The notes under the pieces: generated by a model
Databases searched by the model: none
The model's input: only the letters and a program-made list of their open reading frames with translations
What the model was told of the DNA's origin: nothing
Position numbers and translations under genes: made by a program
Shown here: positions 11,887 through 26,164 of the stretch, in pieces
Numbering within the stretch: position 1 is the first letter of the stretch
How the letters are laid out: each line of letters starts with the position of its first letter
Origin: Escherichia phage FEC19
Sequence record: MH816966
Reading direction: 5' to 3' (one strand)
Length of the DNA stretch: 64,000 nucleotides

Positions 11887-12045
11887 TGTTGACGTAAATT
11901 TACGAAAAATAAAACTGAAAATCAGTTTAATTAAAGTGGCATCGCCGCCAGAGTTTTTAGTTGCTACTGGCGGCGACTGAAGGCATAATTAAGTTATCCC
12001 AAACGGGGAATATAAAATAAACTAATTTATTTAAGGACTGTGAAT

Positions 12046-12885
12046 ATGGCCGAAGCAATCAAAGTATTATCTAAAGAAGAAAAACAAGCAGCTGCAGCAG
12101 AACGTCGTCGCGTGGCTGAAGAAAAACGCCTGGCTAAAAAGAAAGAAGCCGAAGAAAAACGCCAGAAGCGTGAGCAGGAAAAACAAGCCAAGCGTGAAGA
12201 AGCTGCGCTGAAACGCAAGCAGGCTGCTGATGAGAAGGCTCAGAAGCGTGCTGAAGAAGCAGCGAAGAAAGCCAAAGAGCGTGCAGAAAAGGCTGCTGCT
12301 AAGAAAGCAGAGCGTGAAGCCGCTAAAGCAGCAAAAGAAATCGAAAAGGCAAAGGCTAAAGAAGAAGCCAAGCGCCTGAAAGCTGAACAAGCTGCTGCTA
12401 AGAAAGCAGAGCGTGATCAAGCCCGTGCTGCAGCGAAGGCCGAAAAAGAGAAGGCCAAAGAAGAAGCTAAAGCGAAACGCAAGGCAGAGCGTGAAGCTGC
12501 TAAGATTGCGGCTAAAGAAGCTGCAGAAAAGCAGAAAGAACAGCGTAAGAAAGAAGCTGAAGAACGTCGCAAAGCCATCGCAGAACGTAAGGCTGCTAAA
12601 AAGGCAAACGGTCAGCGTCGTGCAAAAGCAACCCACTTCATCTACACTGGCAATGGCCTGAGCCAGCCGCAAGAGCATTCCACCCGTGGACGCGTTCTGG
12701 CGGCGATCAAAGAAGGCGAAGTTGGCGTGGCGCAGTCTATCGATGAGCTGGGCGAAAAAGTTAAAGATCAACTGTTTGGCGCTTCCGTTCGCTCCTACCT
12801 GAGCAAGCTGGAAGAGATGGGCCACATCGAGTTTGTCGATGTTGAATCCAACGAAGATGCCGAAGACGGTGATCAAGCGGAATAA
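12046..12885 (+). CDS. Lys/Glu/Ala-rich low-complexity protein with globular C-terminal domain
   Basis: About 200 aa of KAKEEAK/AEEKR repeats then an ordinary-composition C-terminal domain; ATG at 12046 with AAGGA RBS preferred over the GTG at 12040. Confidence 0.6.
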   Translation: MAEAIKVLSKEEKQAAAAERRRVAEEKRLAKKKEAEEKRQKREQEKQAKREEAALKRKQAADEKAQKRAEEAAKKAKERAEKAAAKKAEREAAKAAKEIEKAKAKEEAKRLKAEQAAAKKAERDQARAAAKAEKEKAKEEAKAKRKAEREAAKIAAKEAAEKQKEQRKKEAEERRKAIAERKAAKKANGQRRAKATHFIYTGNGLSQPQEHSTRGRVLAAIKEGEVGVAQSIDELGEKVKDQLFGASVRSYLSKLEEMGHIEFVDVESNEDAEDGDQAE

Positions 12886-12912
12886 CCTTAGGACGGTTAT
12901 GCAGCGGTAATT

Positions 12913-12939
12913 GACCCACACTTGTTGTGGGTCTTTTTT
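12913..12939 (+). terminator. rho-independent terminator
   Basis: GACCCACA-CTTGT-TGTGGGTC followed by TTTTTT. Confidence 0.7.
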
Positions 12940-12964
12940 CATCTGTACTAAATAAAATGACTTG

Positions 12965-12993
12965 TTGCTGTAAAATAATTTAGCTATTATACT
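12965..12993 (+). promoter_or_regulatory. sigma70-like promoter
   Basis: TTGCTG-17-TATACT upstream of 13018. Confidence 0.45.
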
Positions 12994-13017
12994 TCTCATA
13001 TCACCCACAAAGGACAA

Positions 13018-14013
13018 ATGAACATGAAACAACCTGTAATGATTATCGGCGGCGGACTGGCAGGACTTATCACCGCGTGTCACTTCCCGAACTCTGTTGT
13101 GTACGAAGCAGGGGAACGAGCGCAACAGCACAAGGCGCTGCTACGCTTTCGCAGCGAAGAAGTAAGCCGTATTACCGGAATCCCTTTTAAGGCCGTGACA
13201 GTTGACAAGGCTGTGTATTTTCGCGGCAACTACTATCACGACCATTGCCCAATCAACCTTGCCAATATGTATTCCATGAAGGTCACCAATCAATTTGGCA
13301 GCCGTTCAATCATGAAGCTTAAGACTGCAACGCGTTATATTGCGCCTGATGACTTTTATGATCAGCTTGTCGACAAACTGGGTGACCGCATATTCTTTGA
13401 TACTCCGGTTGATACTCTTTGCGGCTATAGCGAGACGCCAATCATCAACACGTCGCCGCTGCCAGTAATGATGAAGCTTGCTGGGATTGATCAAAAGCTT
13501 GATTTCTCATTTGATAAAGCAAACATTCGCGTTTACCGCTTTAAGATTAAACGTAAGTGTGATTTGTATCAGACAATTTACTTCCCTGACTACTCCGTCA
13601 GAACTTACCGCGCATCAATTACTGGTGACACGCTTATCATTGAAACAATTCCTTTGGTCAGCGTGAGTGAAGCTGCAGTTGAAGCCGCTGGCGGCATCAC
13701 TCGTTACCGTGACATGAAGCTGCGCGCAGAAGTCGACGAAGTGTTGACAGCCTTTGGCCTCTCATGGAGTGACATTGCTCTTGAAGAAGTTGAAAAGGTC
13801 GACCAGAAATATGGCAAGATTGTCGACATTCCGAAAGACTTGCGACACGCCCTACTCCTGCAGCTGACTATGGATTTGAACGTGTTCAGTGTCGGTCGAT
13901 TTGCTACCTGGCGCAACATTTTGCTTGATGACGTTGCCCATGACCTTGTTGAAGTTGAAAAACTCATCAAAGCAAATAACTATCAAAAATTTGCTTATAT
14001 TGCTAATAAATAA
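13018..14013 (+). CDS. FAD/NAD(P)-binding Rossmann-fold oxidoreductase (possibly UDP-galactopyranose-mutase-like)
   Basis: N-terminal VMIIGGGLAGLITA (GxGxxG); C-terminal VGRFATWRNILLDDV resembles the conserved C-terminal motif of flavin mutase/amine-oxidase-like enzymes. Confidence 0.6.
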   Translation: MNMKQPVMIIGGGLAGLITACHFPNSVVYEAGERAQQHKALLRFRSEEVSRITGIPFKAVTVDKAVYFRGNYYHDHCPINLANMYSMKVTNQFGSRSIMKLKTATRYIAPDDFYDQLVDKLGDRIFFDTPVDTLCGYSETPIINTSPLPVMMKLAGIDQKLDFSFDKANIRVYRFKIKRKCDLYQTIYFPDYSVRTYRASITGDTLIIETIPLVSVSEAAVEAAGGITRYRDMKLRAEVDEVLTAFGLSWSDIALEEVEKVDQKYGKIVDIPKDLRHALLLQLTMDLNVFSVGRFATWRNILLDDVAHDLVEVEKLIKANNYQKFAYIANK

Positions 14014-14014
14014 T

Positions 14015-14043
14015 TTGCTTTCTGCTTCAATGGGCGTATACTT
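14015..14043 (+). promoter_or_regulatory. sigma70-like promoter with -10 inside a palindrome loop
   Basis: TTTGCT-17-TATACT; the -10 lies between 11-bp arms CTGCTTCAATG and CATTGAAGCAG. Confidence 0.45.
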
Positions 14044-14078
14044 TAATCATTGAAGCAGAACTCATAGAGGAAACGAAA

Positions 14079-14525
14079 ATGAAACGAATCACTGGAATCG
14101 CGCTTGCCGCTACTGCTATTCTCGGCACCATGTATATGGAAGCGACTGAAGCTGCCATCCGTACTTCCGATTCAATCGCTGTTTACGATTGCGAAGCGAT
14201 GGACGGCAAGACCTCAGCAACGACTGGTGCAAAGATTACCACTTACATCGGTGTGAACGAGCAAGAAGGTCTGAATATTCAGATTCAAGGATTCACAGGG
14301 AAAGGTACCAACCGTACTCCGTGGATGCAACGTTTCACTTTCGTCCAACCTCGTTCAACTGGCGACTTTATCAATCTGATTGGTGAAAACCGTTCTGGTG
14401 CAGAAATCTTTACATCAATGAGTTCTAATAATGAACCAAAGAAAAGTTTTCAGTTGCTTTATAACGCACAATTCGTTTATCATTGCACCTTCTCTGGTGA
14501 TCAGCAACTAGTGAATTACCGTTAA
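14079..14525 (+). CDS. secreted protein with signal peptide
   Basis: N-terminal MKRITGIALAATAILGTMYMEA hydrophobic signal-like segment; two Cys in the mature part. Confidence 0.5.
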   Translation: MKRITGIALAATAILGTMYMEATEAAIRTSDSIAVYDCEAMDGKTSATTGAKITTYIGVNEQEGLNIQIQGFTGKGTNRTPWMQRFTFVQPRSTGDFINLIGENRSGAEIFTSMSSNNEPKKSFQLLYNAQFVYHCTFSGDQQLVNYR

Positions 14526-14538
14526 TAGGATAATTAAA

Positions 14539-15369
14539 ATGAAAGTTGAATTAATTCGATACACCCAAGATGCACTTGACCTTTTGCTGGAAACAAAGAA
14601 CACGCGCATGACTGGTAAGCCTGTCTCTGAGATGACGGAATCAGAGAAGCAAGAGCATTGGCGCTACATGCTTGATACAATCAAGTCGCCTTTTGACTTT
14701 GTGGACTATATCTTTGACATCACCGATGTTTCAAAGAATATGACCCATCAGATGGTGCGCACACGCACAGGCGCATATCAAGAACGCACCAGCCGCGCTC
14801 AGGAGTCGTCTGCATTTGATGCGATTCGTCCGAAGGCATTCTCACACCAAAATCCAGAGTTGATTGATCAATGTGAAGCATTTGGGACTGATGAAGAGCA
14901 CCAGTCTTTACTTCAAAAGCAATACTTAGCAGAGAAGTGGGATGATGCGATGGCGACTATCGATGTTTTGTATCAAGAGCTTCGCGCGGCTGGCGCAGAG
15001 ATTCAAGATGCACGTGCCGTGTTGCCTTCTAATATGCAAACGCATATCATGGCAAAGTTCAACTTGCGCACGCTGCAACAGATGGCGTCAAACCGCTTGT
15101 GCACGCGCACTCAAGGCGAGTATCAAGAAGTATTCCGCGCGATGGTTGCTGAAGTCCTCAAGGTGCACCCGTGGGCAAATCCATTATTACAGCCGCAATG
15201 CATCGGTATGGGTAAATGCGCGTTTCCTCGTCATGGCAAAGCCCATTGCCCTTGGTATCGTGATTGGATGGATACCACGGCACAGCAAGAAGAGTTGCGC
15301 ATCCAGTTTTGGAGTGCGATGCCAATCACCAACAATCCAGTTGCTAAAGATGGAGTATCAAAAGGATGA
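14539..15369 (+). CDS. flavin-dependent thymidylate synthase (ThyX)-like protein, noncanonical motif
   Basis: VRTRTGAYQERTS aligns to the ThyX RHR-x7-S region and ARAVLPSNMQTHIMAKFNLRTLQQMASNR to the ThyX helix [29 protein letters not shown] (recalled from memory). Confidence 0.55.
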   Translation: MKVELIRYTQDALDLLLETKNTRMTGKPVSEMTESEKQEHWRYMLDTIKSPFDFVDYIFDITDVSKNMTHQMVRTRTGAYQERTSRAQESSAFDAIRPKAFSHQNPELIDQCEAFGTDEEHQSLLQKQYLAEKWDDAMATIDVLYQELRAAGAEIQDARAVLPSNMQTHIMAKFNLRTLQQMASNRLCTRTQGEYQEVFRAMVAEVLKVHPWANPLLQPQCIGMGKCAFPRHGKAHCPWYRDWMDTTAQQEELRIQFWSAMPITNNPVAKDGVSKG

Positions 15370-16238
15370 GCATTAAAAACAGCGAAATCTTAAACGTATT
15401 CGACCTTGACGGAACGCTGTTTGATGACCGTTGGCGCTTAGACCGCATCAAGGTGGCAGGTCCGTTGTCAGACTATGATGACTATCACAGCGGTATTGGT
15501 TATGATCAGTTCTATCCTCACATTGCATCAGCAGTAGAGTCGGCATCTCTTCGCGGTGAGGCGGTTGAATATTGGACTGCAAGGCCAGAAAAATACAGAC
15601 AAGTGACTTTTGAACGTCTGGATAATGTTTTTCCTTTTGATGAATTTACAATCAAGATGAGAGACTATGGCGACAAACGTCCATCAACTATTATGAAATC
15701 TGCATGGCTATCGCACGCATTGCGGCACGGCGATTATCGAATCATCAATGTATTCGACGACCGACAAGACGTACTCGCGCGGATGCAAGATGAAGCATTG
15801 TATTATAATTCCGTTGCTCAAAATAAAATCGCTTTTACATTTAATCTTTGCAAGGCAGGTGAAGTGGTGCAACAATTAGCAATTGATCCAAGCGCAACAG
15901 GGCAAGAAGAGACTAAGGCTGTGGAAGTTGAACAATCTCCGGCAACTGCCGCCGATATTCTTGATGCAATGGCAGCAACCTTCCGTGAGCGCAACGCTGT
16001 CTATGGTGATAACGCTGTGATGGTAGGTCAGGTTATGCAAGTGCTTTTCCCTAATGGCGTGACGTTGAAAACGCCGGAAGACTACCACATGTGGCATCTG
16101 TTCGAGCTTAAGATTGTCAAGCTTACACGCTTCGCAATCAGCGGCCTGAAGCACGAAGACTCTATACACGATGATGGTGTTTACAGCGCCATGTGTGAAC
16201 GTCTTGTTAACGCCCATAATATTAATTTCAATAAATAG
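15366..16238 (+). CDS. HAD-superfamily phosphatase fused to a C-terminal domain of unknown function
   Basis: HAD motif I FDLDGTLF plus downstream T, K and DD motifs; C-terminal about 120 aa with RERNAVYGDNAVMVGQVMQVLFPNG of unknown affiliation. Confidence 0.6.
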   Translation: MSIKNSEILNVFDLDGTLFDDRWRLDRIKVAGPLSDYDDYHSGIGYDQFYPHIASAVESASLRGEAVEYWTARPEKYRQVTFERLDNVFPFDEFTIKMRDYGDKRPSTIMKSAWLSHALRHGDYRIINVFDDRQDVLARMQDEALYYNSVAQNKIAFTFNLCKAGEVVQQLAIDPSATGQEETKAVEVEQSPATAADILDAMAATFRERNAVYGDNAVMVGQVMQVLFPNGVTLKTPEDYHMWHLFELKIVKLTRFAISGLKHEDSIHDDGVYSAMCERLVNAHNINFNK

Positions 16239-16268
16239 TTTACTTGTGCGTTTCGATGAGTTATATTT
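16239..16268 (+). promoter_or_regulatory. sigma70-like promoter with -10 inside a palindrome loop
   Basis: TTTACT-18-TATATT; the -10 lies between 12-bp arms CGTTTCGATGAG and CTCATCGAAACG. Confidence 0.45.
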
Positions 16269-16303
16269 ATCTCATCGAAACGAAGTCCAAAAAGGATAAA
16301 TAA

Positions 16304-16987
16304 ATGAAAAAAGTAATTGTTGTAACTGGCTGCAATTCCGGTCTTGGTAAATCCATTTTTGACACCCTTGGCGCTTACGGTCATGAAGTTGTCGGTATTG
16401 ATTTGGAGAACGGCTATGACATCCGTAACGCGAAACAGATGAAAGAGCTTCTCTCTCAATACGACGTAGAAGGCTTGATCAACTGCGCTGGCGTCAACTC
16501 CAACAACTGGTTCGAAGATGTTAACTACGAAGAGTTCAATCGCGTTATGCACACCAACGCCTTCTCTTTCGTCAACACGACTCAGGCCGCGCTGAAAAGT
16601 CTTATCGACAACAAAGGTTTTGTGATCAATATCGTTTCTAACGCTGCGCATATTCCTATGACGTCCAGCTTGTGTTATAATGCTTCCAAGGCTGCTGCGC
16701 TCATGATTAGCAAGCAGATGGCTCACGAGCTTACGCCTAAATACGGGATCACGGTATTCTCTATTAGTCCTAACAAGCTACGTGGTACTGGCATGTCCAA
16801 ACAAATTGAAGATGCTGTTTGCGCGACTCGCGGCTGGACTCCTGAGTATGCTGCTGAATACCAGAAAAAGGCGTTGATGAATGGATTGGAGACTGAGCCG
16901 CAAGTAATTGCTGACTTCATTCGCCATATCTTAATTACGGGCGCATGGCGCTTTATGTCTGGTACTGATATTCCATTTGGGAAATAA
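16304..16987 (+). CDS. short-chain dehydrogenase/reductase (SDR)
   Basis: Cofactor motif VTGCNSGLGKS (TGxxxGxG) and catalytic YNASKAA (YxxxK). Confidence 0.8.
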   Translation: MKKVIVVTGCNSGLGKSIFDTLGAYGHEVVGIDLENGYDIRNAKQMKELLSQYDVEGLINCAGVNSNNWFEDVNYEEFNRVMHTNAFSFVNTTQAALKSLIDNKGFVINIVSNAAHIPMTSSLCYNASKAAALMISKQMAHELTPKYGITVFSISPNKLRGTGMSKQIEDAVCATRGWTPEYAAEYQKKALMNGLETEPQVIADFIRHILITGAWRFMSGTDIPFGK

Positions 16988-16990
16988 ATC

Positions 16991-17161
16991 ATGACTATCA
17001 AAGTTGTTGTAGAAGTGATTGGCGACGTGGCAGAAGTGAAGATTGATCAAGAAGGCGTTGGATTTGAAGTAATAAGAATCGAAAACGCAAAGATTAACCA
17101 CGAGCGCGTCGGTTCAATTGAGACTTATTCCATAGAAGGCAACACAGTAATTAATCAATAA
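16991..17161 (+). CDS. small hypothetical protein (56 aa)
   Basis: Not in the ORF track; fills the SDR-to-VOC gap; weak RBS. Confidence 0.25.
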   Translation: MTIKVVVEVIGDVAEVKIDQEGVGFEVIRIENAKINHERVGSIETYSIEGNTVINQ

Positions 17162-17181
17162 TATTTAATTAAGGAAACAAA

Positions 17182-17733
17182 ATGCCACATTTTAAAATTG
17201 AACAAATCGCCCTGTCAATTCCAGATGCTCAGCGCGCACAGGATTTTCTGGCTAAAATCGGCCTGACAGAATGGTTCCATGATCATGTTGTTGCTACTGG
17301 TCGCGTATTTGAAGCTGATGACTTTAAAGGTCAGCGCGGCGATTGCACCAACGAAGCTGACTTGCGCTTCAACTATCAAGCTGGCAACGGCACCGATGGC
17401 GGCGCTGGTAAGCCTCTTGAACTTGAAATTCTTGACTACACGAAAGGCCGCAACTGGATTAACGAAAACATCGAATACATCGATGCACATGACAATCAGG
17501 TTAGCCATCTTGGTATGCACGTGACTGCCGCTGAACTTGCTGAATGGCGCAAGTTCTTTAAAGAAGAAGGCATTCAGGTTGCGCAGGAAGTTGTGACCGA
17601 CTCTCACACCAACCCAAACATTGCTGGTCAGCGTCGTTACAACTATGTGATCTTTGATACGCGTGAAATCATTGGTGTCGACCTTAAGTTCATCGTGCGG
17701 TTGAATCAAGACGGTACTCCGTACACTGTATAA
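17182..17733 (+). CDS. VOC/glyoxalase-fold protein (tentative)
   Basis: N-terminus HFKIEQIALSIPDAQRAQDFLAKIGLTEW has the glyoxalase/bleomycin-resistance-like pattern. Confidence 0.45.
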   Translation: MPHFKIEQIALSIPDAQRAQDFLAKIGLTEWFHDHVVATGRVFEADDFKGQRGDCTNEADLRFNYQAGNGTDGGAGKPLELEILDYTKGRNWINENIEYIDAHDNQVSHLGMHVTAAELAEWRKFFKEEGIQVAQEVVTDSHTNPNIAGQRRYNYVIFDTREIIGVDLKFIVRLNQDGTPYTV

Positions 17734-17749
17734 CGAATCGTGAATCTGT

Positions 17750-17775
17750 GGCCGTCCTAATGGGCGGCCTTTTTG
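17750..17775 (+). terminator. rho-independent terminator
   Basis: GGCCGTCC-TAAT-GGGCGGCC followed by TTTTTG. Confidence 0.65.
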
Positions 17776-23230: not shown

Positions 23231-23494
23231 ATGGTACGCATCCTTGAACGTTACAAAAATGAAGCTACTGGCGCAATCGCGTTCAAACGTCTTTTGGTCA
23301 AAGAAATTGACGGTATGTTCCGCGTTGTAAAAGAGTTTGATTATGGCAACGGTGCTGGGGTGAATACCGTAATTATGCCTGGCATCAAGGCATATAAGAC
23401 TTTAAAAGGCGCTGAGAAGGCTTTGGCGGCTTGGAAACCTGAACGTTATCAAATGACCCGTGTTGAAGGGCTAATGCAAGAAGGTAAAATATGA
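23231..23494 (+). CDS. hypothetical protein (87 aa)
   Basis: ORF downstream of a TTGACT-17-CATAAT promoter. Confidence 0.45.
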   Translation: MVRILERYKNEATGAIAFKRLLVKEIDGMFRVVKEFDYGNGAGVNTVIMPGIKAYKTLKGAEKALAAWKPERYQMTRVEGLMQEGKI

Positions 23495-24048
23495 GCAATA
23501 TTAATTGGGAAGATGATTTGCCGCAGGTTGCTCCTGAGAGCATTCAGGAGCGTCTTGCGCGCTTAGTATCTGAATTGGCAGAGCGCCAAGAAGCTTTGAC
23601 AGAGCTTGAAGATGAAGCTGATATGCAAAAGCAGCGCATCAGTGAAATCAAAACTGTTCTGCTTCCTGGCGTTATGGATGAGCTTGGCGTGTCCGAAATC
23701 AAGCTTGAAGACAAGACCAAAATCAAGGTCGAGTCAAAAGTAAACGCTTCAATCAAGAAAGAAAATGAATTGAAGGTATTCGATTGGCTTGTCAACAATG
23801 GTTACGGCGGCTTGATCAAGTCCAGCGTCACGGCTGAGTTCGGTCGCGAAGAAATCGAGCAAGCGCAAGAGATTGTTGCCGCGCTGCGTGAAGATGGTGT
23901 TGAAGCCACGTTGAAACAAGGCGTTCATTCTGCTACACTGAAGTCGTTTGTAAAAGAACAGCTGGAAGCGGGCAATCCAGTTAGTGAAGATATTAGCGTT
24001 TTTGAATACAAAGAAGCTAAAATAACCTTGCCTAAAAGCAAAAAGTAA
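23491..24048 (+). CDS. hypothetical coiled-coil protein (185 aa)
   Basis: Acidic, heptad-like N-terminus; sits just upstream of the SSB-like gene. Confidence 0.45.
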   Translation: MSNINWEDDLPQVAPESIQERLARLVSELAERQEALTELEDEADMQKQRISEIKTVLLPGVMDELGVSEIKLEDKTKIKVESKVNASIKKENELKVFDWLVNNGYGGLIKSSVTAEFGREEIEQAQEIVAALREDGVEATLKQGVHSATLKSFVKEQLEAGNPVSEDISVFEYKEAKITLPKSKK

Positions 24049-24107
24049 TTTAACCTTTATCTTGAAATCAGGTTGCCACGAAACTTGATACTATAGGAAA
24101 ATATCAA

Positions 24108-24968
24108 ATGTCTAAGAAAGAAACCACCGAAGTTGCAGTGAAAAACACCCAGATGTCCGCTATGGCTGATTTTGTCGACATGACCGATTTTGGCGCTGGT
24201 TTTGAAGGTGCCGATGCCGATGCGTATGCCATTCCTTTTATCGTCGTACTGCAGAAGATGTCTCCTATGGTCGACGAAGATGATCCAAAACACGTTCCTG
24301 GCGCAAAGGCTGGCATGCTTTACAACACCGTTACTGGTGAGTTGTATGACGGCAAGAAAGGCGTGCAGATCATCCCTTGCGCATTCAAACGCACCTTCAT
24401 TCTTTGGGGCGGTCGCGAGTCCGACGATAAAGGCTTTAAAGGTGAATTCACCAAAGAGCACGTTGATGCAGAAGTCGCGGCAGGCCGCGCTGTTGAGATC
24501 AACGGTAAGGTATTCGTGCCGGACGAAAACGGCAAGGTGCACGAGAAGAAATCTCCTTACTACGCAGATACACGCAACCACTTCGTAATTCTGTTGAACG
24601 AAGAAACTGGTGAATTTGGTAGCGCAATGCTGTCTCTGACTTCTTCCATGATCAAGCCGTCTCGCATGCTGATGACCGCTCTGCAGCAGAAGAAAGTTCA
24701 GACTCCGCAGGGTCTGAAAACGCCGCCGACCTTTATGAACATCGTTCGCATGGGTACTGCATCCCAGTCCAAAGACGGCAACACCTGGTCTGTTCTGAAG
24801 TTTGAGCTGGAAGGTCTGGTGCAGGACAAAGGCCTGTACGAAGTCGCCAAGGCATTCCACAACGACGTAGTGGGCGGTAACGTTAACATCGACCGCAGCA
24901 AGCAGGAAGAAGCAAGCGGTGCCGCTGGTCCTGTCAATGAAACTCCTACCGACGCAGAAGAGTTTTAA
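24108..24968 (+). CDS. putative ssDNA-binding protein
   Basis: Acidic C-terminal tail ending in Phe (ETPTDAEEF), as in T7 gp2.5 and bacterial SSBs; AGGAAAA RBS. Confidence 0.45.
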   Translation: MSKKETTEVAVKNTQMSAMADFVDMTDFGAGFEGADADAYAIPFIVVLQKMSPMVDEDDPKHVPGAKAGMLYNTVTGELYDGKKGVQIIPCAFKRTFILWGGRESDDKGFKGEFTKEHVDAEVAAGRAVEINGKVFVPDENGKVHEKKSPYYADTRNHFVILLNEETGEFGSAMLSLTSSMIKPSRMLMTALQQKKVQTPQGLKTPPTFMNIVRMGTASQSKDGNTWSVLKFELEGLVQDKGLYEVAKAFHNDVVGGNVNIDRSKQEEASGAAGPVNETPTDAEEF

Positions 24969-25025: not shown

Positions 25026-25544
25026 ATGATAGAAAGAATTGTACCGCTCTTGAAGATTCTGGCCCTTGTTGGCGCGTTTGCCGCTGGATCATACGTTGAA
25101 GACCTGCAGCAAACCAACGCATCACTGGCCAAGGATAATCAATATCTGACATCGCTTAATGAGCGTAAGGACAAGATAAATGCACTCGAAGAGCAAATTG
25201 CATCTTTACAGGTTGAATCGGCATCGGCATATGAGAAAGGTCGCCAGGAAGCGCAACTGGTTGCTGATGACACTATTGCTCGTTACAAGTCTGGGAATAT
25301 CAAGTTGCGCGCGCAACTCAGCTGCTCCCGTGAGTTACTCAGGAGTATGCCCGACTCTGCGACCACTGGACGCCTCTCTATCCCAGAAGGAAACTGTGGA
25401 CTATCAGAAGAAGATGTCAGTTTTCTTGTTCAGTTCGCCGCAGAAACAAATCGATTAAAAGAGAAAGTTAATAGCTTGATTGATACTTATAATCAGGCTA
25501 AAATAAAAATCGATCAATTCAATGCATCAAAGGAAAATAAATGA
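25026..25544 (+). CDS. i-spanin (Rz-like)
   Basis: N-terminal TM helix IVPLLKILALVGAFAAGSYV followed by a long coiled coil; embedded lipoprotein ORF in the +1 frame. Confidence 0.6.
   Translation: MIERIVPLLKILALVGAFAAGSYVEDLQQTNASLAKDNQYLTSLNERKDKINALEEQIASLQVESASAYEKGRQEAQLVADDTIARYKSGNIKLRAQLSCSRELLRSMPDSATTGRLSIPEGNCGLSEEDVSFLVQFAAETNRLKEKVNSLIDTYNQAKIKIDQFNASKENK
25231..25458 (+). CDS. o-spanin (Rz1-like lipoprotein) embedded in the i-spanin gene
   Basis: MRKVARKRNWLLMTLLLVTSLGISSC signal with lipobox ISSC, then a Pro-rich mature part. Confidence 0.5.
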   Translation: MRKVARKRNWLLMTLLLVTSLGISSCARNSAAPVSYSGVCPTLRPLDASLSQKETVDYQKKMSVFLFSSPQKQID

Positions 25545-26164
25545 AACAGATTTATGCAAACATTCGCCAGTGGGCTTCTGACCGTAACATCATCCAAGGT
25601 TGCGACCTTAAGGACCAATACCCGAAGCTTATCAGCGAGTTCGGGGAGTTAACCGACCACGTTGATCAACTCCATGACCTTGTGTTCTTCGACCCTGAAA
25701 TTGGATATACAGAGCAAGCCATCTGTGACTTGCAGGCAGCAATTAAGGACGACATCGGCGATTGCCTTGTTGTGTTGACCATCCTGGCGGCGCAAAACGG
25801 TACTGAAATCGAAAACATTAATGGCGGCGGTTGTGCTGATAAAGGCGCTCACCCTCATTCATTCATCCTTCGCCTGGCAAAGACCCTTGGACGGCTTGGT
25901 GATGCTATTGCTAAGAATCAGACCATGGATATTGACGTCACCATCATGGCCGCAGTCGATTACCTTTCCGGCGTAGCTCATGATTATGGCCTTCGCTTAT
26001 CCGACTGTGCGCAAGCGGCCTACGAAGACATCAAGGACCGCAAAGGTGTCATGTACAACGGAACGTTCATCAAATCTACTGATCCAGCTTATGAGCACTC
26101 CTGCAAAATGGTAAAGAAGCTGGAACTTGAAGACCGTGTGATCAGAGAAGTTACAGGACAATAA
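25541..26164 (+). CDS. MazG-like nucleotide pyrophosphohydrolase (tentative)
   Basis: EFGELTDHV and DDIGDCLVVLTILAAQNG resemble the EExxE and EExxD motifs of all-alpha NTP pyrophosphohydrolases. Confidence 0.45.
   Translation: MKQIYANIRQWASDRNIIQGCDLKDQYPKLISEFGELTDHVDQLHDLVFFDPEIGYTEQAICDLQAAIKDDIGDCLVVLTILAAQNGTEIENINGGGCADKGAHPHSFILRLAKTLGRLGDAIAKNQTMDIDVTIMAAVDYLSGVAHDYGLRLSDCAQAAYEDIKDRKGVMYNGTFIKSTDPAYEHSCKMVKKLELEDRVIREVTGQ

What the first reader, a model, noticed from the sequence alone, without database searches (positions are those of the whole stretch)
14539..15369. ThyX-like protein with a substituted signature motif
Two segments align to flavin-dependent thymidylate synthase, but the RHR-x7-S signature reads RTR-x7-T here (His to Thr, Ser to Thr). 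That pattern fits a neofunctionalised ThyX-fold enzyme, by analogy with thymidylate-synthase-fold pyrimidine hydroxymethylases, rather than a housekeeping dTMP synthase. The ThyX comparison is from memory.
Basis: partly seen in the sequence, partly recalled or inferred. Interest (0 to 1): 0.6.

Follow-up and report, generated by a model that had tools for sequence, protein, structure and literature searches.

The report
Divergent phage ThyX with flavoprotein partner
This E. coli phage gene encodes a thymidylate-synthase-like (ThyX-fold) enzyme from a large, mostly viral branch that lacks two key active-site residues of textbook ThyX, often carries four invariant cysteines, and almost always follows a second flavoprotein gene, so it probably makes or modifies thymidine nucleotides in a non-textbook way.

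Summary
ORF 14539-15369 (+, 276 aa) of this Wifcevirus window is a ThyX-fold protein (Pfam Thy1 E 6.6e-29; AF2 model matches T. maritima ThyX), and its signature reads RTR-x7-T.

The cited residues do not support neofunctionalisation. Across 80 related viral loci the His position is T36/H35/S6/N3 and the Ser position S38/A33/T9. A published Ser-to-Ala ThyX mutant is still active.

The protein is non-canonical in other ways:
- It lacks the His53-Tyr91 pair (Ile48, Ala87).
- It scores below the NCBIfam thyX equivalog cutoff.
- It has four cysteines that are present or absent together across relatives.
- Its gene follows a UGM/protoporphyrinogen-oxidase-fold FAD protein gene in 76/80 viral loci, in Pbunavirus, and in a Rhizobium jumbo phage with a family-A polymerase.
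- HAD-phosphatase, SDR and VOC genes recur downstream.

All dUMP/flavin-contacting arginines are kept. No ThyA is present, even in a relative encoding dCMP deaminase, dUTPase, RNR and DHFR.

Best reading (about 0.5): a partner-dependent dTMP synthase. Rival (about 0.25): it makes a non-canonical pyrimidine, which could explain the published, unexplained restriction resistance of Wifcevirus phages.

The parts
14539..15369 (+). ThyX-fold gene (276 aa), the finding itself
   Evidence: Pfam Thy1 E 6.6e-29. AF2 model plus Foldseek match to T. maritima ThyX. dN/dS 0.21 against phage Bas99, with changes concentrated in the loop at residues 102-129.
14758..14799 (+). ThyX signature region RTRTGAYQERTSRA. 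R74-T75-R76 corresponds to Tm R78-H79-R80, T84 to S88, R86 to R90, A87 to Y91.
   Evidence: Translation. Profile alignment to PDB ThyX sequences. RTR, R86 and A87 are invariant in the 120 closest homologues.
14680..14682 (+). Ile48 codon, at the position of the folate/flavin-stacking His53 of T. maritima ThyX
   Evidence: the family 'dtI' aligns with 'hgH' of Tm ThyX and with 'hgA' of the H53A mutant 4gtf. I/V/T in 80/80 viral loci. Translation.
15100..15249 (+). Four-cysteine module (C188, C221, C227, C237). C188 lies two residues after the catalytic-site Arg186 (Tm R174); the other three lie in a C-terminal insertion absent from T. maritima ThyX.
   Evidence: Translation. Invariant in 120 close homologues and in 34 diverse ones down to 24% identity. 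All four present in 59 and all four absent in 21 of 80 viral loci.
13018..14013 (+). Partner gene: FAD-binding oxidoreductase of the UGM/protoporphyrinogen-oxidase/amine-oxidase fold (331 aa, N-terminal GxGxxG; PHROG 4828, no Pfam family)
14079..14525 (+). 148-aa ORF between the partner gene and the ThyX-like gene. Hydrophobic N-terminus, no family hit, seen only in the Wifcevirus loci examined.
15366..16238 (+). HAD (PNKP-type) phosphatase domain (about residues 11-142) fused to a conserved helical domain of about 100 aa (about residues 186-290). Its start overlaps the ThyX-like stop codon.
   Evidence: Pfam HAD_PNKP E 5.4e-8. PHROG 4889. HAD found in 47/80 and the C-terminal domain in 49/80 viral loci downstream of ThyX-like. 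The C-terminal domain is a widespread stand-alone phage protein without a Pfam family.
16304..16987 (+). Classical short-chain dehydrogenase/reductase (FabG-like), a recurrent cassette member
   Evidence: Pfam adh_short E 1e-31. Generic SDR hits in PDB. Present in 29/80 viral loci.
17182..17733 (+). Glyoxalase/VOC-superfamily protein (weak hit), a recurrent cassette member
   Evidence: Pfam Glyoxalase_4 E 8e-4, below cutoff. Annotated as glyoxalase family in phage Mansfield. Present in 16/80 viral loci.
12913..12933 (+). Terminator-like hairpin upstream of the cassette
   Evidence: A terminator is annotated at the equivalent place in phage Mansfield.
17750..17769 (+). Terminator-like hairpin closing the cassette. 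The inferred operon runs 13018-17733.
   Evidence: A terminator is annotated at the equivalent place in phage Mansfield.

Best explanation
The gene encodes a ThyX-fold, flavin-type pyrimidine-nucleotide C5 one-carbon transferase. It belongs to a large, mostly viral clade. It most likely still converts dUMP to dTMP for phage DNA replication, but with altered cofactor and redox handling.

Shown:
- ThyX fold.
- Retention of every arginine that contacts dUMP or the reduced flavin in T. maritima ThyX (R78, R80, R90, R147, R165, R174), plus Gln75.
- Loss of the His53-Tyr91 pair.
- A four-cysteine module that is present or absent as a unit.
- Near-obligate linkage to an FAD oxidoreductase gene immediately upstream.
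- Co-transcription signals, and translational coupling to a HAD phosphatase fusion.

Inferred:
- The four cysteines bind one metal centre (Zn or Fe-S), anchored two residues from the catalytic-site Arg186.
- The partner flavoprotein supplies what the missing His53/Tyr91 machinery supplies in canonical ThyX: flavin reduction and/or delivery of the one-carbon unit.
- The downstream HAD and helical-domain protein process the nucleotide product or substrate.

The RTR/Thr signature itself is a tolerated variant within this clade. It is not the functional switch.
For: Fold and family.

Substrate-site conservation: R74, R76, R86, R159, R186 are 80/80 and R177 79/80 in viral loci. They are also invariant in 120 close homologues. 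R78 is reported to stabilise FADH- (PMC11940539).

Only TS-like gene:
- tblastn with E. coli ThyA finds nothing in the 64-kb window or in the whole 203-kb Rhizobium phage TM61.
- TM61 carries the same partner/ThyX-like pair together with dCMP deaminase, dUTPase, RNR alpha/beta and DHFR, a set that normally feeds and surrounds a thymidylate synthase.

Position in replication modules next to the DnaE-type polymerase, in Wifce-, Pbuna- and Burkholderia phages and in metagenomes.

Purifying selection on the core.

Partner linkage:
- 76/80 viral loci.
- Matching genus counts for the two genes in 50,697 phage records: 368 against 360 records.
- Also found in a Vibrio podophage, a Rhizobium jumbo phage that uses a family-A polymerase, two MAG contigs, and weakly in Microbacterium phage Hager.

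Controls: two phage ThyX that keep His53 and Tyr91 (Bacillus phi18-2, Clostridium phiCP26F) have no such neighbour. The partner search found no Bacillus or Clostridium phages among the genera listed; nine further genera were not shown.

The Ser and His signature positions vary freely, and a Ser-to-Ala ThyX is active (PMC4913046).
Against: - His53 stacks on the folate pterin and on reduced flavin. Tyr91 mutation slows flavin oxidation about 1000-fold in T. maritima ThyX (PMC11940539). Both are absent here, so a textbook mechanism is unlikely to run efficiently.
- The protein scores below the NCBIfam thyX equivalog cutoff (78.8 against 87.9 bits).
- A plain dTMP synthase does not obviously need a dedicated flavoprotein, or the recurrent HAD, SDR and VOC genes.
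- Wifcevirus phages resist all tested RM systems except EcoP1_I with no known protection mechanism (PMC11990801), although this window has 13 EcoRI and 9 EcoRV sites.
- A PB1-like phage DNA was incompletely cut by EcoRI and HindIII (PMC3634792).
- No biochemical data exist for any member of the clade in the literature searched.
Confidence: 0.5

Rival explanations
1. Neofunctionalised ThyX-fold enzyme. With the partner flavoprotein, and in Wifcevirus the HAD, SDR and VOC proteins, it makes a non-canonical pyrimidine nucleotide. One route would be 5-hydroxymethyl-dUMP, formed by trapping the exocyclic methylene intermediate with water, possibly with further derivatisation. The product would enter phage DNA and protect it from restriction.
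For: - Loss of the His53-Tyr91 pair.
- Score below the equivalog cutoff.
- A conserved multi-enzyme cassette.
- Wifcevirus is insensitive to all tested RM systems except EcoP1_I, without a known mechanism, despite 13 EcoRI and 9 EcoRV sites in this window.
- Incomplete EcoRI/HindIII digestion of a PB1-like phage DNA.
- The ThyX mechanism passes through an exocyclic methylene that nucleophiles could trap (PMC8989533 discussion).
Against: - No 5-hmdU DNA kinase, glycosyltransferase or other known hypermodification enzyme is annotated or detected in the genome.
- Pbunavirus and Wifcevirus genomes are routinely sequenced and digested without any reported base modification. This is absence of evidence only.
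- Strong avoidance of many 6-bp palindromes (15 absent) suggests the DNA is still exposed to type II enzymes.
- In Rhizobium phage TM61 the pair is the only TS candidate amid dCMP deaminase, dUTPase, RNR and DHFR.
- SDR and VOC are missing from most loci, so they are not core to the function.
Confidence: 0.25
2. An ordinary stand-alone flavin-dependent thymidylate synthase. The motif changes and the neighbouring flavoprotein gene have no mechanistic meaning; synteny is inherited with a shared replication module.
For: - Clear Thy1 family hit and fold.
- Annotated as thymidylate synthase in GenBank records.
- Many carriers share DnaE-type polymerase modules, so some synteny is by descent.
Against: - Adjacency persists down to 30-35% identity of both proteins, and in Rhizobium phage TM61, which uses a family-A polymerase.
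- Phage ThyX proteins that keep His53/Tyr91 lack the neighbour.
- Tyr91 and His53 are mechanistically important in the canonical enzyme.
Confidence: 0.12
3. A C5-methylase with a different substrate (UMP, CMP or dCMP), in the manner of the ThyX paralogue PolB of polyoxin biosynthesis.
For: - Replacing Tyr91 with a small residue (Ala, Val or Thr) changes the active-site loop that covers the nucleotide.
- ThyX paralogues that methylate UMP are known (PMC5954106).
Against: - The arginines and Gln75 that bind dUMP in canonical ThyX are all kept.
- The genomic context is DNA replication and deoxynucleotide metabolism.
- The match to the PolB structure 4p5a is weak (E 0.18).
Confidence: 0.06

Closest known systems
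Flavin-dependent thymidylate synthase ThyX (Pfam Thy1 PF02511; T. maritima TM0449, M. tuberculosis and T. thermophilus ThyX)
   Same: - Same fold: Foldseek E 7e-11, TM 0.74.
- Full-length profile match.
- Conserved Arg78, Arg80, Arg90, Arg147, Arg165, Arg174 and Gln75 equivalents.
- Phage replication-module context, as for many phage thyX genes.
   Different: - His53 is Ile, His59 is Phe, His79 is Thr, Ser88 is Thr, Tyr91 is Ala, His178 is Arg.
- Added four-cysteine module.
- About 20% identity to T. maritima ThyX in the structural alignment.
- Below the TIGR02170 equivalog cutoff.
- Near-obligate adjacent FAD oxidoreductase gene.
PolB, ThyX paralogue and UMP/dUMP C5-methylase of polyoxin biosynthesis (PDB 4p5a)
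   Same: A ThyX-fold protein recruited outside housekeeping dTMP synthesis (PMC5954106). It is a precedent for neofunctionalisation within this fold.
   Different: Only a marginal sequence match (E 0.18). PolB sits in a Streptomyces antibiotic gene cluster, not a phage replication module. I know of no partner flavoprotein or Cys4 module for it (from memory).
ThyA-fold pyrimidine hydroxymethylases (T4 gp42 dCMP hydroxymethylase, SPO1-type dUMP hydroxymethylase)
   Different: An unrelated fold. No ThyA-like sequence is present in the window. No downstream hypermodification enzymes were detected.
UDP-galactopyranose mutase / protoporphyrinogen oxidase / amine-oxidase family of FAD enzymes (for the partner gene 13018-14013)
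   Different: Only 10-17% identity. Shorter than these enzymes (331 aa against 365-510). No Pfam or NCBIfam family. Substrate unknown. Always linked to a ThyX-like gene rather than to sugar-nucleotide genes.
T7 gp1.7 nucleotide kinase (DUF3310)
   Same: In the Vibrio phage cassette the gene after ThyX-like is a HAD-like protein with a weak DUF3310 match (E 0.0037). T7 gp1.7 carries DUF3310 (E 4.5e-23). So a nucleotide-kinase-type domain can occupy the slot that the HAD/helical-domain fusion occupies here.
   Different: No detectable similarity between the window's C-terminal domain and gp1.7 (hhalign probability 0.1). This is a positional analogy only.

Membership tests
ThyX / Thy1 superfamily (PF02511) | Profile match above the curated gathering score over the whole domain | tested here: met
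   101.5 bits against 24.8; profile positions 2-191 of 191.
ThyX / Thy1 superfamily (PF02511) | ThyX fold | tested here: met
   AF2 pLDDT 86.5. All top PDB matches are ThyX; 1o26_A TM 0.74.
Canonical ThyX (EC 2.1.1.148 equivalog) | NCBIfam TIGR02170 equivalog score at or above the cutoff | tested here: not met
   78.8 bits against a cutoff of 87.9.
Canonical ThyX (EC 2.1.1.148 equivalog) | Signature RHR-x7-S | tested here: not met
   Reads RTR-x7-T, with Ser at x8. Both positions vary among clade members. A Ser-to-Ala mutant is active in T. maritima ThyX (PMC4913046), so this feature is only weakly diagnostic.
Canonical ThyX (EC 2.1.1.148 equivalog) | Arginines and Gln contacting dUMP or reduced flavin (Tm R78, R80, R90, R147, R165, R174, Q75) | tested here: met
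   R74, R76, R86, R159, R177, R186 and Q71 are invariant in 120 homologues. They are 79-80 of 80 in viral loci.
Canonical ThyX (EC 2.1.1.148 equivalog) | His53 (stacks on folate pterin and reduced isoalloxazine) and Tyr91 (its H-bond partner and proposed general acid) | tested here: not met
   Ile48 and Ala87. I/V/T and V/T/A/M/L/G in 80 viral loci. Roles taken from PMC11940539.
Canonical ThyX (EC 2.1.1.148 equivalog) | Bound FAD, homotetramer, NADPH- and CH2-H4folate-dependent conversion of dUMP to dTMP | not testable with these tools
   Needs protein biochemistry. Only a monomer model was made.
ThyA-fold thymidylate synthases and pyrimidine hydroxymethylases | Sequence or fold similarity to ThyA | tested here: not met
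   No ThyA-like region in the window by tblastn (best E 2.2). The model matches only ThyX structures.
Proposed 'partnered' viral ThyX clade (defined here) | Ile/Val/Leu at the His53 position, Phe at the His59 position, a non-Tyr residue at the Tyr91 position, and a UGM/PPO-fold flavoprotein gene upstream | tested here: met
   Window: I48, F54, A87, partner gene at 13018-14013. Clade statistics. Controls.
Known thymidine-hypermodification pathways (5-hmdU kinase / aGPT-Pplase type) | Presence of a 5-hmdU DNA kinase and transferase genes | tested here: inconclusive
   None is annotated in the complete Bas99 genome, and none was hit among the cassette proteins. The many small hypothetical ORFs were not profiled individually.

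The most novel reading that the evidence does not exclude
The flavoprotein/ThyX-like pair is a two-component system that does not run the textbook folate/NADPH reaction. Either of two versions is possible:

(a) The amine-oxidase/UGM-fold partner generates or carries the one-carbon unit and the reducing equivalents. This would make thymidylate synthesis independent of the His53 folate-stacking site, and would fit published evidence that ThyX-bound reduced flavin can use formaldehyde.

(b) The pair, with the HAD, SDR and VOC genes, makes a 5-substituted deoxyuridine nucleotide that replaces part of the thymidine. This would explain why Wifcevirus phages resist nearly all tested restriction systems.
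Probability: 0.3. Interest if true: 0.85.

Novelty: new variant of a known kind. Interest (0 to 1): 0.5.

Why it matters
ThyX is a drug target and a model for flavin-mediated carbon transfer. All mechanistic work rests on enzymes that carry His53 and Tyr91.

This gene belongs to a very large viral clade: 4,877 cluster representatives at E<=1e-3 and 1,289 at E<=1e-10 match its profile. The clade includes the therapeutic Pbunavirus phages. It lacks both residues, often carries a four-cysteine site, and is almost always encoded next to an uncharacterised FAD enzyme.

If the pair is a two-component thymidylate synthase, it is a new solution to an essential reaction. If it makes a modified base, it would explain an open observation from the BASEL collection, that Wifcevirus resists restriction without a known mechanism, and would add a ThyX-based route to DNA modification.

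Either way, the current database label 'thymidylate synthase' is untested for this clade.

Tried and rejected
- Rosetta-stone fusions. Among 150 clade representatives, the long proteins were scanned for a fused partner domain. Only one dubious 277-aa chimera had a partner-like N-terminus. The other N-terminal extensions have no Pfam family, and one long member simply carries an intein. No support from fusions.
- Identity of the HAD-fusion C-terminal domain. No Pfam, NCBIfam or PDB sequence hit. The homologue search returned only unnamed stand-alone proteins of about 100 aa. hhalign against T7 gp1.7 was negative. My initial idea that it is a MazG-like or DUF3310 domain is therefore not supported.
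- SDR as a pteridine or dihydrofolate reductase (FolM/PTR1-like). PDB and NCBIfam hits are generic FabG-type. Dropped.
- Cellular distribution. A scan of 185,579 species genomes with phage-clade patterns found nothing. With RHR-type patterns it found 7 loci. Of the two best, one MAG contig carries phage genes and both carry the same partner gene. This search is pattern-limited, so absence from cells is not proven. One archaeal MAG protein with canonical residues plus the four cysteines exists.
- Literature. Searches for ThyX with Pbunavirus, Wifcevirus, Fe-S, cysteine or hypermodification found no characterisation of this clade or of the partner.
- Spatial clustering of the four cysteines in the model could not be measured. 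Model coordinates are not exposed.

Full report
**What the window is.**
The region 13000-17000 is 93-98.5% identical to 27 sequenced Wifcevirus phages of E. coli and Shigella, including RCIP0363, Ro157lw, WFH, ECML-117 and BASEL Bas98-101. These are 66-72 kb myoviruses distantly related to Pseudomonas Pbunavirus (PMC11990801).

**The observation.**
- ORF 14539-15369 (+, 276 aa) has an AGGA 9 nt before its ATG. Its stop overlaps the next gene's start as ATGA.
- It matches Pfam Thy1 over the whole profile (E 6.6e-29) and PHROG 85 'thymidylate synthase' (E 7.6e-38).
- Single-sequence comparison with solved ThyX structures is weak (best E 1.4e-3). A profile of 48 homologues reaches T. thermophilus, T. 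maritima and M. tuberculosis ThyX at E 5e-10 to 6e-8.
- The AlphaFold2 model (pLDDT 86.5) matches only ThyX structures (1o26_A, TM 0.74, 20% identity).
- The signature at 14758-14799 reads RTRTGAYQERTSRA and aligns with fRHRiasynelSgRy of T. maritima ThyX.
Neither of its refutation conditions applies.

**Why those two residues say little.**
- In the 120 closest homologues RTR is invariant. These proteins are all from one phage lineage.
- Across 80 IMG/VR loci of the wider clade, the His position is T36/H35/S6/N3 and the Ser position S38/A33/T9. All five arginines I scored as nucleotide/flavin contacts are 80/80, and a sixth is 79/80.
- Orthologues with RHR and with RTR share the same gene neighbourhood.
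- The conserved Ser was once proposed as the nucleophile, but the Ser-to-Ala enzyme is active (PMC4913046).
- In reduced T. maritima ThyX the Ser hydroxyl hydrogen-bonds flavin C4=O (PMC11940539). A Thr could keep that bond (inference).

**What is really unusual in the protein.**

1. *The His53-Tyr91 pair is gone.*
   - Ile48 aligns with His53. The alignment to the H53A mutant 4gtf shows Ala at that column. Ala87 aligns with Tyr91.
   - In the 80 viral loci these positions are I/V/T and V/T/A/M/L/G.
   - In T. maritima ThyX, His53 stacks on the folate pterin and on reduced isoalloxazine and hydrogen-bonds Tyr91. Tyr91 mutation slows flavin oxidation about 1000-fold (PMC11940539).
   - His59 and His178 are also replaced, by Phe54 and Arg190.
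2. *The protein falls below the NCBIfam thyX equivalog cutoff.* It scores 78.8 against 87.9 bits.
3. *Four cysteines behave as a unit.*
   - C188 lies two residues after Arg186 (the Tm R174 equivalent). C221, C227 and C237 lie in an insertion absent from T. maritima ThyX.
   - They are invariant in 120 close homologues and in 34 diverse ones down to 24% identity.
   - In the 80 viral loci either all four are present (59) or all four are absent (21). That pattern is what a single metal site would give (inference; Zn or Fe-S cannot be told apart).
   - The module also occurs with fully canonical residues in an archaeal MAG protein, and apparently in Clostridium phage phiCP26F. It is therefore not tied to loss of His53/Tyr91.

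The clade is large. The 48-sequence profile finds 4,877 cluster representatives at E<=1e-3 and 1,289 at E<=1e-10. The top 150 show the same residue pattern.

**The gene neighbourhood.**
Terminator-like hairpins at 12913-12933 and 17750-17769 bracket a unit of seven ORFs. Terminators are annotated at the same places in phage Mansfield. The ORFs are:
- a 331-aa FAD-type oxidoreductase (13018-14013);
- a 148-aa ORF seen only in the Wifcevirus loci examined;
- the ThyX-like gene;
- a HAD (PNKP-type) phosphatase fused to a helical domain of about 100 aa;
- a classical SDR;
- a 56-aa ORF;
- a VOC/glyoxalase-like protein.

**The flavoprotein gene is linked to the ThyX-like gene almost without exception.**
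- It lies upstream in 76 of 80 IMG/VR loci. In three of the four exceptions the ThyX-like gene sits at the contig edge.
- It is upstream in PB1, Burkholderia phage WTB and a metagenomic contig.
- It is immediately upstream in Vibrio podophage VA-RY-3 (35% identity).
- It lies 1.9 kb upstream in Rhizobium jumbo phage TM61, which uses a family-A polymerase.
- It is immediately upstream in two MAG contigs. One of them (L010) also carries phage genes.
- In 50,697 phage records the two genes have nearly identical distributions: 368 against 360 records, with Pseudomonas 292, Escherichia 25 and Serratia 9 for both.
- Microbacterium phage Hager has an 'oxidoreductase' overlapping the start of its ThyX-like gene. 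That protein weakly matches the partner's N-terminus (E 7e-4).
- Two phage ThyX that keep His53 and Tyr91 (Bacillus phi18-2, Clostridium phiCP26F) have no such neighbour.
- Mycobacteriophage Adjutor also lacks His53/Tyr91, but no recognisable partner was seen within 2.5 kb.
- The partner therefore tracks the His53/Tyr91-less clade. It does not track the RTR variant or the cysteine module.
- Downstream, HAD (47/80), the helical domain (49/80), SDR (29/80) and VOC (16/80) recur in the same order.

**What it most likely does.**
The nucleotide-binding and flavin-stabilising arginines are intact. No ThyA-like gene exists in the window, or in the complete Rhizobium phage genome. That phage combines the pair with dCMP deaminase, dUTPase, ribonucleotide reductase and DHFR. 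The gene sits in replication modules. Its core is under purifying selection: dN/dS is 0.21 overall, with changes confined mainly to a variable loop.

I therefore rank dTMP synthesis first, at about 0.5. I expect the partner flavoprotein to supply reduction and/or one-carbon delivery that His53/Tyr91 mediate in canonical ThyX. That mechanistic step is inference.

**The main rival (about 0.25): a non-canonical pyrimidine nucleotide.**
[quoted passage not shown] This window contains 13 EcoRI and 9 EcoRV sites. A PB1-like phage DNA was not fully cut by EcoRI or HindIII (PMC3634792).
- Against: 15 six-base palindromes are completely absent, and GATC is at half its expected count. That suggests the DNA remains exposed to type II enzymes. 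No known hypermodification enzymes are annotated.

**Novelty.**
The gene is already labelled 'thymidylate synthase' in GenBank, and the fold is known. I found no description, in the searchable literature, of the clade-level features: the missing His53/Tyr91, the all-or-none Cys4 module, or the near-obligate UGM/PPO-fold partner. I rate it a new variant of a known kind, of moderate interest. Interest would be higher if either the two-component or the modification reading is confirmed.

**Caveats.**
The key residue equivalences were re-derived against real PDB sequences.
- Many of the 80 viral loci are related, so the counts are not independent events. Independence rests on the Vibrio, Rhizobium, MAG and Microbacterium cases.

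Noticed in passing
window 1-64000 (whole window): Strong, selective oligonucleotide bias. 15 six-base palindromes are entirely absent (e.g. GGATCC, AGATCT, CTCGAG, GAGCTC; expected 10-18 each). GATC occurs 119 times against 247 expected and CCGG 76 against 181. GCGC (406 against 181), AAGCTT (49 against 18) and CAGCAG (71 against 26) are over-represented. Expectations come from base composition only.
   Followed up: partly
window 14079-14525 (+): 148-aa ORF inserted between the flavoprotein and ThyX-like genes. It has a hydrophobic, signal-like N-terminus (MKRITGIALAATAILG...). No Pfam, PHROG or NCBIfam hit. Found only in the Wifcevirus loci among those examined.
   Followed up: partly
window 15921-16235 (+), C-terminal domain of the HAD fusion: This domain of about 100 aa has invariant R, YG, FP-G, K..R and DS..D...Y positions. 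It is 60-74% identical to many stand-alone phage proteins of about 100 aa on 35-60 kb contigs, and none has a Pfam family or a name. It recurs downstream of ThyX-like genes, either fused to HAD or free.
   Followed up: partly
window 12040-12885 (+) and 12067-13131 (-): A 281-aa ORF with no family hit precedes the cassette and is conserved in PB1 and Burkholderia phage WTB at 46-47% identity over its C-terminal part. The overlapping 354-aa minus-strand ORF is a low-complexity mirror (runs of F, L, S) and is probably not a gene.
   Followed up: no
protein P0168 (637 aa, metagenomic; clade member): An intein (Intein_splicing, E 1.6e-12) interrupts the ThyX-like domain after about residue 73, just before the R-x-R signature. 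P0162 and P0256 show the same split architecture.
   Followed up: partly
Rhizobium phage RHph_TM61 (L098 608-1123; L100 15606-16109; L007 10855-14006): This jumbo phage encodes DHFR, dCMP deaminase, dUTPase, RNR alpha/beta and a 5'-nucleotidase, but no ThyA. A DHFR alongside a ThyX-type enzyme is unexpected, because canonical ThyX leaves folate as H4folate (statement in PMC9012536).
   Followed up: partly
L105 1560-3682 (Microbacterium phage Hager gp53-gp54-gp55): An 'oxidoreductase' overlaps the start of a 439-aa ThyX-like gene. The next protein (gp55) contains a YG...K..K...D..D helical pattern reminiscent of the window's C-terminal domain. This suggests the same three-gene set exists in actinophages in a very divergent form.
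   Followed up: partly
L104 2360-3022 (Clostridium phage phiCP26F gp43): A ThyX with canonical His53, His59, RHR, Ser, Tyr91 and His178 also appears to carry cysteines at positions equivalent to the four-cysteine module. So the module is older than, and independent of, the loss of His53/Tyr91.
   Followed up: no
window 14842-14925 (residues about 102-129 of the ThyX-like protein): A hypervariable, indel-rich acidic loop accounts for most differences between Wifcevirus orthologues (90% overall identity against 98-99% for the flanking genes). The rest of the protein is nearly identical.
   Followed up: partly
window 23491-24968 (+) and 25541-26164 (+): Pam3 gp33-like (DUF7307) and gp34-like proteins lie downstream of the helicase genes. 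The same two families lie directly upstream of the flavoprotein/ThyX-like pair in MAG contig L010. A MazG-like pyrophosphatase (weak Pfam hit, E 0.023) sits next to the DNA ligase gene.
   Followed up: no
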